A DNA stretch of 64,000 nucleotides, from assembly GCF_963921235.1 (NCBI RefSeq), contig NC_086097.1:104038001-104102000 (forward strand). The letters run 5' to 3'. The position numbers were made by a program, and so were the translations under genes. Positions within the stretch are counted from its first letter, which is position 1. Each line of letters starts with the position of its first letter. Shown one piece after another: positions 2,341 to 3,159 of the stretch. The DNA is from Mobula hypostoma. Taxonomy: Eukaryota. The notes under the pieces are model-generated. The model made no database searches. It was not told where the DNA came from and saw only the letters and a list, made by a program, of their open reading frames with translations.

Positions 2341-2390
2341 ATTAGCATGAAGTACATGTTGCAGACCAGGCTCTGCTATATGGTACCAAC

Positions 2391-2856
2391 TTCTTCTTCT
2401 TCTTCTTGCGCCCTTAACTCCTGGTGGAGTCGTCGGGGGTGTCGTCATGACGAGCTTTGCACCAGTTTGGTGTGCTCATCATGTGGTGTGTCTTGCGCAT
2501 CTGAAACTTGGTGGAGTCCATCCCTCTCCAGGTTTGATCACAGCCGGTTTCCTCCAACTAGGTGGCTCGCCTTGGTCGTGAACACGTGGCCGTTATAGTT
2601 CATCTGAGAACCTTTCCATCCCGGCCGGTGACTTCATCATGGAAGTCATTCACCCAGTGGTGCCGTGTTAACACCACCCCCTCACGTGGTTTAGCCCACC
2701 AGATGATGCGGTTTACCGGGGGTATGGCGCTTGGAGCCAACACGTGAGAGATTTAGGAGATGGATAAGGACCAGTGATGCCCGTCCACCCTGTCTGGTAG
2801 GGAGCAGCATGCCAGACATCAAAGGTACCACCTCTATCCAGAGCCCCCGATATCCC
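2391..2856 (-). mobile_element. 466-bp non-autonomous RTE-type retroelement (ribozyme head, RTE-like 3' end, (GAA)n tail)
   Basis: An 11-bp TSD ATGGTACCAAC is present at 2380-2390 and 2857-2867. (TTC)n at 2391-2408 is the (GAA)n tail. The element is CpG-rich and has no long ORF. Confidence 0.85.
2679..2856 (-). ncRNA. HDV-like self-cleaving ribozyme (predicted)
   Basis: Manual fold gives P1 GGGAUAU/AUACCCC, P2 CUCUCACGUGUU/ACCACGUGAGGG, P3 GGC/GCC, L3 UCCAAGC, P1.1 CC/GG, P4 CCGC/GUGG and J4/2 GCUAA with the catalytic-position C at 2694. All elements are in canonical order. Confidence 0.75.
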
Positions 2857-3159
2857 ATGGTACCAACAGTCACACATTAATGGGCATGTGCTGCTGCTCC
2901 TGGGTACATACACTCTACACTCTGTCTCTGAGACATACACACATATGGACTCAGGCACAGGGCCCCCTGCTCACTGCCCCCTCCTGGCTTGACCATATAA
3001 TAGTCTTGTCCCAGGCACAGAGCAAACTGTGTTCCTGGTACCCAGCTCCAGCCCTTTGACAACACTCTCTTCATGTTTTCCAAGTGCATGCGAAGAGGAT
3101 GAACAGGAACACAGATGCTACTTCTATGGGAGCAGATGGAATTCCTCTGGCCCTTCACT

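What the first reader, a model, noticed from the sequence alone, without database searches (positions are those of the whole stretch)
2380..2867. HDV-like ribozyme-headed non-autonomous retroelement (a 'ribozyme SINE')
Seen: a 466-bp non-coding insert on the minus strand with an 11-bp TSD (ATGGTACCAAC) and a (GAA)n tail. Its first 178 nt fold into a full HDV-like nested double pseudoknot in canonical order: P1 5' GGGAUAU (2856-2850); a ~100-nt structured J1/2 (UGGAUAGAGG/CCUUAUCCA and UGUCUGG/CCAGACA stems); P2 5' CUCUCACGUGUU (2750-2739); P3 GGC-UCCAAGC-GCC (2738-2726); P1 3' AUACCCC (2725-2719); P1.1 GG (2717-2716); P4 CCGC/GUGG; J4/2 GCUAA with C at 2694; P2 3' ACCACGUGAGGG (2690-2679). The predicted cleavage site (5' of G1) coincides exactly with the element/TSD boundary. 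Known: HDV-like ribozymes process the 5' ends of R2 and RTE retrotransposons, and internally deleted R2 derivatives keep them. Inference: this is a SINE-like family with no tRNA/5S/7SL head, released from host transcripts by self-cleavage and mobilised by an RTE. I do not know of one described in cartilaginous fishes but could not search. This copy has one P1 mismatch, one P2 mismatch and one extra C before P1.1, so it may be impaired.
Basis: partly seen in the sequence, partly recalled or inferred. Interest (0 to 1): 0.85.

Follow-up and report, generated by a model that had tools for sequence, protein, structure and literature searches.

The report
Ribozyme-headed short RTE-derived retroelement copy
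This is a decayed copy of a short non-coding jumping element made from the two ends of a larger LINE found in the same genome, and its first 178 bases fold like the self-cutting hepatitis-delta ribozyme, a known way for such elements to trim their own RNA.

Summary
Window 2391-2856 (minus strand) is one 466-bp insertion with an 11-bp target-site duplication and an (AAG)n tail. One contig of run X7 carries the empty site.

It belongs to a family whose copies mostly begin at the same G. The family consensus repairs this copy's defects and gives a canonical HDV-like fold: 7-bp P1, 10-bp P2, 3-bp P3 with L3 UCCAAGC, GG for P1.1, short P4 and J4/2 GCUAA.

I found the parent. It is a 3.35-3.4 kb endonuclease plus reverse-transcriptase LINE of RTE-like build. 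It shares its first ~390 nt, ribozyme included, and its last ~60 nt with the short element. The element is therefore an internally deleted derivative, like the R2 'SIDEs', rather than a classical SINE.

Two other LINE-head families in this genome carry a homologous ribozyme with compensatory changes in P1, P2, P4 and the J1/2 domain, although their reverse transcriptases are only 29% identical.

Cleavage itself is untested: no RNA ends were available and Rfam gives no match. This window copy is probably inactive.

The scan had already noted a sister ribozyme with an extra L3 hairpin elsewhere in this genome (e1-7813318). Verdict: new member of a known kind.

The parts
2857..2867 (-). Target-site duplication, copy at the element's 5' side (GTTGGTACCAT on the minus strand)
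   Evidence: The empty-site contig in run X7 has 11 letters shared by both sides.
2380..2390 (-). Target-site duplication, copy at the element's 3' side
2391..2856 (-). Whole element: one copy of a ~458-466 bp internally deleted, non-coding derivative of a ~3.4 kb LINE
   Evidence: 40 of 40 scored matches in the own genome at 90-93% identity. Alignment and consensus. Both ends shared with L124 and L125.
2679..2856 (-). HDV-like ribozyme (consensus nt 1-177); predicted cut 5' of the G at 2856
2850..2856 (-). P1 5' strand. GGGAUAU here, GGGGUAU in the consensus, so this copy has a G-to-A change at pair 4.
   Evidence: P1 pair counts.
2751..2849 (-). Structured J1/2 insert of ~100 nt. Closing helices are GGGGG/UCUCC, UGGAU/AUCCA, GAGG/CCUC, ACC/GGU and UGAUG/CAUCA.
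   Evidence: MFE folds. Helices 1-4 have changes on both sides in 4, 4, 0 and 2 pairs across families.
2739..2750 (-). P2 5' strand (CUCUCACGUGUU; 10 contiguous pairs plus one after a mismatch)
   Evidence: helix 5: 97.4% of cells paired; pair 161/242 is CG in 23 rows and GC in 8.
2726..2738 (-). P3 (GGC/GCC) closing the 7-nt loop L3 UCCAAGC
   Evidence: helix 6: 96.8% paired.
2718..2725 (-). P1 3' strand AUACCCC (2725-2719) plus a private extra C at 2718
   Evidence: The extra C is left out in a share of the contig depth in all four laid runs, from 36% (X7) to 70% (X1) (table 4, place 2718).
2716..2717 (-). GG that pairs with the CC of L3 (P1.1)
   Evidence: helix 7: CG in 31 of 31 rows and in 25 of 31 rows.
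2696..2711 (-). P4 hairpin. CCGCA...GGUGG here, weakened; CCGCU/GGCGG in the consensus.
   Evidence: helix 8: 3 pairs with changes on both sides; pair 218/231 is CG in 15 rows and GC in 9.
2691..2695 (-). J4/2 GCUAA with the candidate catalytic C at 2694
   Evidence: G161 to A166, which include the candidate catalytic C, are listed invariant in the 11 family-A copies. The CUAAACC stretch is shared by families A, B and C apart from scattered single-copy changes.
2679..2690 (-). P2 3' strand (ACCACGUGAGGG)
2501..2678 (-). Rest of the parent LINE's 5' untranslated leader
   Evidence: Element nt 1-390 match L124 and L125 at 96-97% identity.
2466..2500 (-). Remnant of the parent ORF's start (ATG at 2500-2498, about 12 codons), ending at the deletion junction near 2466/2465
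   Evidence: The L124 and L125 frames read MPKTR.MMSTPK... into the endonuclease domain. The same junction is present in 40 exact-word places of the genome.
2408..2465 (-). 3' module: the last ~13 codons, stop codon and 3' UTR of the parent LINE, the presumed recognition site for its reverse transcriptase
   Evidence: Element nt ~390-450 match the 3' ends of L124 and L125 at 94-98% identity.
2391..2407 (-). (AAG)n microsatellite tail. The two parent LINE copies carry (GCAAG)n after the same ...GGGCGCAAG end.
   Evidence: GCAAG-type tails appear as loose ends at 2405 in runs X6, X7 and X10.

Best explanation
The stretch is one decayed insertion of a short, ORF-less derivative of a ~3.4 kb endonuclease/reverse-transcriptase LINE of RTE-like build.

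A single internal deletion joined the LINE's first ~390 nt to its last ~60 nt. The first part holds the ribozyme, the 5' leader and 12 codons. The resulting element then spread in trans.

Proposed mechanism, with each step marked:
1. The element has no pol III head and is probably transcribed as part of longer host or read-through transcripts (inferred).
2. Its first 178 nt fold into an HDV-like nested double pseudoknot and cut the RNA immediately 5' of G1. The released RNA therefore starts at the element's first base. The fold is supported by sequence and covariation; cleavage is inferred.
3. The LINE's protein recognises the shared 3' module and its microsatellite tail, nicks a target and reverse-transcribes the RNA. 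This gives the 10-13 bp target-site duplications and the occasional 5' truncations (footprints shown; recognition in trans inferred).
4. Because the cut lies upstream of the ribozyme, every full-length copy carries the ribozyme on (follows from the fold).

The window copy has a P1 mismatch, an extra C between P1 and P1.1, and a weakened P4. It is probably inactive.
For: Insertion. TSD and tail; empty site in one X7 contig, which skips 2380-2856 with 11 shared letters.

Family and precise 5' end. 40 of 40 scored hits at 90-93% identity. 27 of 40 copies start GGGGTA at the same base and none extends upstream.

Canonical fold in the consensus. P1 is GGGGUAU/AUACCCC. P2 is CUCUCACGUG/CACGUGAGGG. 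P3 is GGC/GCC. L3 is UCCAAGC, keeping the U and G that a passage of PMC3774820 calls highly conserved. GG lies directly after P1, followed by P4 and GCUAA.

Homology and covariation. A covariance model built from this family alone finds the heads of two other families (B, C) over its full length, in 21 fetched copies at E 2e-14 to 8e-21 and in the two decayed seed loci L041 and L040 at 4.5e-09 and 1.7e-06. On that alignment 92.7% of 1280 cells pair, against 85.7% in shuffles (0 of 500 reach it) and 32-52% when partners are slid. 15 of 42 pairs change on both sides, against 3-6 when slid. P1 pair 6 is A-U in 8 rows and G-C in 8 rows.

Selective conservation. The 49-nt core is 76-88% identical between families, while the downstream reverse transcriptases are 29% identical.

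Parent LINE. L124 and L125 share nt 1-390 (96-97%) and the last ~60 nt (94-98%), have 11-bp TSDs, and carry RVT_1 at E 1.5e-35. Relatives are 1010-1060 aa endonuclease plus RT proteins.

Single origin. One deletion junction, in two close variants, occurs at 40 exact-word places.

Literature. A J1/2 of ~100 nt lies inside the known range of 23 to >700 nt. HDV-like ribozymes at RTE 5' ends are cited in passages of PMC3774820.
Against: No direct evidence of cleavage. All laid runs were contigs, and none can show RNA starts.

Rfam has no match: gathering threshold on the whole window and E<=10 on the region.

The nested MFE is not unusual for the composition, with z-scores of -1.25 and -0.73.

The compensatory changes come from only three related families, so they represent few independent events. 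Alignment A3 was fitted to the model, which leans towards the structure.

The first P1 pair is G-C in all families. I recall a G-U wobble at that position in HDV itself; this comes from no call.

A subfamily starting GGGGUAC loses P1 pair 7 without compensation (L002, L013, L022).

The 80 metagenome loci encoding relatives of the LINE's protein gave no ribozyme with either model, nor with my descriptor beyond background. Rfam found none in the 19 of them scanned. Many of those contigs may lack 5' ends.

An internal promoter that starts at nt 1 would give the same uniform 5' ends.
Confidence: 0.8

Rival explanations
1. The conserved, pseudoknotted 5' structure is real but does not cleave. It would serve another role for the LINE, such as binding the element's protein or starting translation. 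The uniform 5' end would then come from an internal promoter or from full-length reverse transcription of a defined transcript.
For: The J1/2 domain, which passages of PMC3414825 say has little effect on cleavage in other HDV-like ribozymes, is nevertheless kept by compensatory changes across families (helices 1, 2 and 4). A passage of PMC6765202 says the R2 protein binds a pseudoknot within the extended R2 ribozyme. An earlier scan note (e1-7808980, unchecked) reads RTE leaders of this genome as translation elements. No cleavage data exist.
Against: The core matches the catalytic layout position by position: L3 UCC...G, GG after P1, C in J4/2, and P1 starting at nt 1. That layout is not needed for mere protein binding. 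The short derivative has no ORF to translate yet keeps the whole fold, and it amplified. The two roles are not exclusive.
Confidence: 0.13
2. The HDV-like fold is a chance resemblance in a GC-rich LINE leader.
For: No Rfam match. The MFE z-scores are not significant. Loose HDV descriptors give many chance hits.
Against: The tightened descriptor hits 5 times in 590,928 nt, whereas here it falls exactly on the element's first base. The same fold recurs in three families with compensatory changes, and slid controls drop to 32-52% paired. The core is conserved at 76-88% while the RTs are only 29% identical.
Confidence: 0.03
3. The short copies are independent internal deletions of LINE insertions made during or after integration. 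On this view they are not a family that propagates on its own.
For: LINE integration is known to produce deleted copies. One place shows a still shorter head-to-tail spacing of 199 nt (C2:127068687/127068886).
Against: All copies examined share one junction, with 40 exact-word places in two close variants. They have their own target-site duplications at different loci. They also carry a tail type, (AAG)n, that differs from the (GCAAG)n of the two LINE copies.
Confidence: 0.04

Closest known systems
R2 SIDEs (Short Internally Deleted Elements) of Drosophila (Eickbush and Eickbush 2012, PMC3414825; passages read)
   Same: A non-autonomous, ORF-less element with no pol III head. It consists of the parent LINE's 5' HDV-like ribozyme joined to the parent's 3' end and is thought to be copied by the parent's machinery. 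The ribozyme defines the 5' end.
   Different: [quoted passage not shown] This element is dispersed genome-wide, has variable 10-13 bp target-site duplications and an (AAG)n tail. Its parent is an endonuclease/RT LINE of RTE-like build in a vertebrate. [quoted passage not shown]
[quoted passage not shown] 2011, not held; seen only as cited in passages of PMC3774820 and PMC6765202)
   Same: A ribozyme at nt 1 of a promoter-less non-LTR element, with cleavage at the element's precise 5' junction.
   Different: Those cases are from insects, trypanosomes and other invertebrates, as listed in passages of PMC8256844. I could not compare sequences. No Rfam HDV-like model matches this one.
NARTc, the truncated non-autonomous partner of L1Tc in Trypanosoma cruzi (PMC3383444 and PMC3185411; search listing and abstract starts only)
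   Same: A non-autonomous derivative that keeps the parent LINE's 5' HDV-like ribozyme.
   Different: There the 77-nt ribozyme doubles as an internal promoter, in a protist L1-type element. No promoter function was tested here.
Sister ribozyme families B and C of the same genome (earlier scan note e1-7813318; loci L059-L118 here)
   Same: Homologous core and J1/2 architecture, the same position at nt 1, and heads of LINEs and of short derivatives.
   Different: B and C carry a ~21-nt hairpin inside L3, a repeated P1 strand, and ...GAGAGACAACCA-type tails. This family has the canonical 7-nt L3.
Twister-headed RTE elements (Perere-3) of Schistosoma mansoni (PMC8501958; abstract start only)
   Same: A self-cleaving ribozyme serving non-LTR retrotransposition.
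   Different: A different ribozyme class.

Membership tests
HDV-like self-cleaving ribozyme | Nested double pseudoknot in the order P1-J1/2-P2-P3-L3-P3'-P1'-P1.1-P4-J4/2-P2' | tested here: met
   All strands are present in order in the window and in the consensus. 92.7% of cells pair, against 32-52% in slid controls. P1 is 92.4% paired.
HDV-like self-cleaving ribozyme | Conserved core letters: a C in J4/2, and a U and G in L3 that form a reverse wobble (passages of PMC3774820) | tested here: met
   J4/2 is GCUAA and L3 is UCCAAGC. G161 to A166, which include the candidate catalytic C, are listed invariant in the 11 aligned family-A copies, and L3 is kept apart from a few single-copy changes. 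The CUAAACC stretch is shared by families B and C apart from scattered single-copy changes.
HDV-like self-cleaving ribozyme | Helices supported by compensatory change | tested here: met
   Changes on both sides occur in P1 (1 pair), P2 (1), P4 (3), P1.1 (1, in one row only) and the J1/2 helices (10). Caveats: only three related families, and the alignment was fitted to the model.
HDV-like self-cleaving ribozyme | Self-cleavage 5' of P1 that depends on the J4/2 C | not testable with these tools
   No raw RNA reads were available; only contigs were laid.
HDV-like self-cleaving ribozyme | Match to a curated Rfam HDV-type model | tested here: not met
   0 matches at gathering score. At E<=10 the only hits were two unrelated chance matches, sR15 and Glutamine-II. 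The ~100-nt J1/2 insert probably defeats those models; that explanation is inference.
Internally deleted non-autonomous LINE derivative (SIDE type) | 5' and 3' ends identical to an autonomous LINE of the same genome, with the ORF missing | tested here: met
   Nt 1-390 match at 96-97% and the last ~60 nt at 94-98% to L124 and L125. The short element keeps only ~12 first and ~13 last codons.
Internally deleted non-autonomous LINE derivative (SIDE type) | Propagated as a family: one shared junction, separate insertions with their own TSDs | tested here: met
   40 exact-word places share the junction. TSDs lie at different loci. An empty site exists for this copy.
RTE clade of non-LTR retrotransposons (the parent) | Single ORF of ~1000 aa with an N-terminal AP-type endonuclease and an RT, element ~3.2-3.5 kb, short UTRs, microsatellite-like tail (features recalled, not from a call) | tested here: inconclusive
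   Length is 3.35-3.4 kb. RVT_1 scores E 1.5e-35. Exo_endo_phos_2 reaches only E 0.0025, below the Pfam cut-off. Relatives are 1010-1060 aa with PF03372, PF14529 and PF00078. No source or tool names the clade. Both fetched copies have broken frames.
Classical SINE | Head derived from tRNA, 5S or 7SL RNA with a pol III promoter | tested here: not met
   No such Rfam match at E<=10. ARAGORN found 0 genes. The head is the LINE's own 5' end.

The most novel reading that the evidence does not exclude
Several deeply diverged LINE lineages of a cartilaginous fish (reverse transcriptases 29% identical) may all depend on one inherited HDV-like ribozyme. On this reading its ~100-nt J1/2 domain, kept by compensatory change, is a second functional module, for protein binding or translation start, rather than a spacer. 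The module would be swappable: present with or without an L3 hairpin, on LINEs and on their ORF-less parasites. The ribozyme head would then be the general route by which promoter-less RTE-type elements and their short derivatives spread in vertebrate genomes. The parent's closest protein relatives (66-68% identity) include tube-worm records, which leaves room for horizontal arrival.
Probability: 0.3. Interest if true: 0.6.

Novelty: new member of a known kind. Interest (0 to 1): 0.45.

Why it matters
It adds a vertebrate, genome-wide example to a mechanism so far documented mainly in insects and protists: a promoter-less LINE and its ORF-less parasite that define their own RNA 5' end with an HDV-like ribozyme.

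The parent/derivative pair is complete here. Both ends, the deletion junction, the empty site and the sister families are all in hand. The system is therefore directly testable by a cleavage assay and by mapping 5'-OH ends.

It also supplies a seed alignment for a ribozyme type that current Rfam models miss.

For genome annotation, these repeats should be filed as LINE-derived deletion elements and not as SINEs of unknown origin.

Tried and rejected
1. RNA evidence. The look-up of sequencing runs listed no holder on record as RNA. The four runs laid were contigs, and no place where molecules begin or end was reported. Nothing can be said about expression or cleavage.

2. Looking for the parent with the 3' 121 nt. 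All 17 new places were copies of the short element: 9 near full length and 8 truncated at the 5' end.

3. Junction-exclusion patterns. BBBD+CTGGAGAGGG... gave 2 places. GGCTGTGGTCAAAC+NNNNNNBHHH gave 15 places, of which 7 formed a recurrent class. The one I fetched (L121) is an unrelated LINE 3' end that shares only the 14-mer. The parent was finally found by comparing the coordinates of exact head and tail words.

4. Places of earlier notes on this contig (L040, L122, L123). My coordinate conversion did not land on recognisable elements, except for the heads in L040 and L041.

5. Cross-species covariation from 80 metagenome loci encoding relatives of the LINE protein.
   - Model R1: 0 of 80.
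   - Model R2: 0 of 80.
   - Rfam at gathering threshold: 0 hits in 19 of those loci plus L124.
   - My descriptor: 3 plus-strand and 2 minus-strand hits, which is background.
   - The descriptor also missed 4 of the 7 control loci scanned: the C-family copy L096, the parent copy L124 and the decayed heads in L041 and L040.

6. MAFFT alignment of the three families (A1) put P2/P3 of family A and the 5' strand of family C out of register. It was used only for P1 of families A and B.

7. Naming the clade. Neither the protein search nor the Atlas gave a clade name.

8. Ruminski et al. 2011 is not held.

9. The idea that the element is the ZFTRAF1-carrying family of earlier notes. The stop-to-stop frames of the element were only listed and none was searched against a protein library. 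The question became moot once the whole body was shown to be LINE sequence.

Full report
**1. The observation**

On the minus strand the window reads ...GTTGGTACCAT|GGGATATCGGGGGCTC ... AAGGGCGCAAG(AAG)n|GTTGGTACCAT. The element occupies 2856-2391 and the 11-bp duplication lies at 2867-2857 and 2390-2380.

It is an insertion. In run X7 one contig joins 2379 to 2857, skipping 477 bases, with 11 letters that fit either side. That is the empty site with one copy of the target (table 5). Contigs of X6 and X10 run from a flank into the element, so the site is filled there. The organism labels are coded, so I cannot say whether this is a polymorphism or a difference between species.

**2. A family with a fixed 5' end**

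The window's own genome (3.48 Gb, 200 contigs) gave 40 of 40 scored matches at 90-93% identity. The first look produced 1146 loose candidates.

Of 40 copies (39 fetched plus the window):
- 27 start GGGGTA at the same aligned base;
- 7 are within one base or one substitution;
- 6 lack 3-16 nt;
- none shares upstream sequence.

A strict script found exact target-site duplications of 8-13 bp in 15 of 40 copies. Eight could not be anchored, and imperfect duplications were not counted.

Exact-word counts give a more sober size than the first-look figure:

| Word | Exact matches in the genome |
|---|---|
| Head 17-mer | 102 |
| Tail 17-mer | 427 |
| Junction specific to the short element | 40 |

By my rough estimate, the short element therefore has on the order of one to a few hundred copies. 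The tail is shared by many more, truncated or longer, elements.

**3. The fold**

The consensus removes this copy's defects:
- P1 GGGGUAU/AUACCCC, 7 of 7 pairs;
- P2 CUCUCACGUG/CACGUGAGGG;
- P3 GGC/GCC closing L3 UCCAAGC;
- GG directly after P1;
- P4 CCGCU/GGCGG;
- J4/2 GCUAA.

L3 keeps the U and the G that a passage of PMC3774820 describes as a highly conserved reverse-wobble pair. The same paper reports P1 and P1' separated by 23 to more than 700 nt in R2 ribozymes, so a ~100-nt J1/2 is ordinary.

The evidence against should be stated as fully:
- Rfam finds nothing.
- The nested MFE is no better than shuffles, with z-scores of -1.25 and -0.73.
- The first P1 pair is G-C, where I recall G-U in HDV. 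That recollection comes from no call.

**4. Relatives in the same genome and covariation**

Earlier scan notes led me to two LINE-head families, B (seed L040:8094) and C (seed L041:2606). An RVT_1 ORF lies downstream in L041.

They align with this family over the ribozyme. They differ by a ~21-nt hairpin inside L3 and a repeated P1 strand, which is the build described in note e1-7813318. Their tails are of the ...GAGAGACAACCA type.

A covariance model built from 11 copies of this family alone finds B and C heads over its full length. It scores E 2e-14 to 8e-21 in 21 fetched copies, and 4.5e-09 and 1.7e-06 in the decayed seed loci L041 and L040.

On that alignment (31 rows), one search gives:

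| Measure | Observed | Shuffled | Partners slid |
|---|---|---|---|
| Cells forming a standard pair | 92.7% | 85.7% (0 of 500 reach it) | 32-52% |
| Pairs changed on both sides | 15 of 42 | 11.3 (3 of 500 reach it) | 3-6 |

Clear family-level swaps are:
- P2 pair 8: G-C in 8 rows, C-G in 23;
- P4 pair 2: C-G in 15 rows, G-C in 9;
- several pairs in the J1/2 closing helices.

P1 pair 6 is A-U in 8 rows and G-C in 8 rows (families A and B only, because family C's 5' strand was out of register in that alignment).

Caveats: there are only three related families, so independent events are few, and the alignment is fitted to the model. In addition, a subfamily starting GGGGUAC loses P1 pair 7 without compensation.

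The 49-nt core is 76-88% identical between families, while the reverse transcriptases downstream are 29% identical. This argues for selection on the core.

**5. The parent**

I compared the coordinate lists of the head word and the tail word. This showed five places where they lie 2.9-3.4 kb apart on one strand.

Two of these were fetched (L124, L125). Both are 3.35-3.4 kb elements with 11-bp target-site duplications and (GCAAG)n tails. They match the short element's nt 1-390 at 96-97% and its last ~60 nt at 94-98%.

Their protein-coding content is as follows:
- Their frames, which are broken, carry RVT_1 (E 1.5e-35) and a weak endonuclease match (E 0.0025, below the Pfam cut-off).
- 269 database relatives were found. 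The best reach 68% identity and are 1010-1060-aa endonuclease plus RT proteins on 3.2-3.9 kb contigs.

That architecture is RTE-like, but no tool named the clade.

The ORF begins MPKTR.MMSTPK at element nt 354. The short element keeps about 12 first codons and then jumps to the last ~13 codons, the stop and the 3' UTR. One junction, in two close variants, is shared by all 40 exact-word places. This points to a single deletion followed by amplification.

Both tail types repeat the last letters of the common ...GGGCGCAAG end. This fits slippage by one enzyme (inference). The abstract of PMC6007223 links RTE tails and target choice.

**6. What it is and how it works**

It is an ORF-less, internally deleted derivative of a ribozyme-headed LINE. 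The closest described thing is the R2 SIDE (PMC3414825, passages). Those authors avoid the word SINE for elements that are not pol III transcripts, and they call non-LTR SIDEs rare.

- Shown here: the insertion footprints, the shared ends, the fold with covariation, and the coincidence of the predicted cut site with nt 1.
- Inferred: co-transcription, self-cleavage and mobilisation in trans.
- This window copy is probably dead. It has a G-to-A change in P1 pair 4, an extra C before P1.1 and three changes in P4.

**7. Novelty**

HDV-like ribozymes at RTE 5' ends and ribozyme-keeping non-autonomous derivatives are in print (passages of PMC3774820, PMC6765202, PMC3414825 and PMC8256844; abstract starts of PMC3383444 and PMC3185411).

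One full-text search combined ribozyme, retrotransposon and four cartilaginous-fish terms, requiring any 3 of the 6. None of the 15 listed papers holds the word ribozyme. Dfam and Repbase could not be searched.

The scan itself had already noted the sister family on other DNA of this genome (e1-7813318).

Verdict: a new member of a known kind. It is well documented and testable, and of moderate interest.

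Noticed in passing
L051, L053, L054 and L119: Four 5'-truncated copies of the short element all begin at the same place, element nt ~322-326 (CTGGAGAGGG...). 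Their upstream flanks are unrelated and short target-site duplications are visible by eye. This could be a preferred reverse-transcriptase stop at the base of a hairpin, or a ~140-nt mini-element.
   Followed up: partly
L124, L125 versus proteins P0040 and P0049: The parent LINE's RT region is 66-68% identical to records annotated in the tube worm Lamellibrachia satsuma and to many 3.2-3.9 kb metagenome contigs. That is unusually close for a ray and an annelid, and it hints at horizontal spread of this LINE lineage among marine animals.
   Followed up: no
L089-L118: Family C heads carry the P1 strand twice (GGGTGCAT GGGGTGCAT). Copies start either at the first or at the second repeat, so there are two alternative 5' ends. 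Family B has a similar second G-run.
   Followed up: partly
L063:1497-1694 and L063:2085-2281: Two ribozyme heads of different subtypes lie about 590 nt apart on the same strand in one locus. This may be a tandem or nested insertion.
   Followed up: no
G000:C2:127068687-127068902: The head word and the tail word lie only 199 nt apart, with the family junction present. This is a still shorter deletion derivative of the element.
   Followed up: no
L034 (C135) and L035 (C111): Two small contigs carry the same copy with identical flanks. They are probably duplicate or haplotype contigs in the assembly.
   Followed up: no
L121:400-560: An unrelated LINE 3' end shares the 14-mer GGCTGTGGTCAAAC with the element by chance and recurs at 7 or more places.
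   Followed up: partly
window: The window holds 200 N. No second copy or diverged relative of the element was found elsewhere in its 64 kb.
   Followed up: yes
window 2405 and 2848 in runs X6, X7, X10 (table 7): In the other organisms' contigs most copies read GGGGUGUA at the 5' end, which gives G-U or G-C at P1 pair 6. Many carry (GCAAG)n rather than (AAG)n tails.
   Followed up: no
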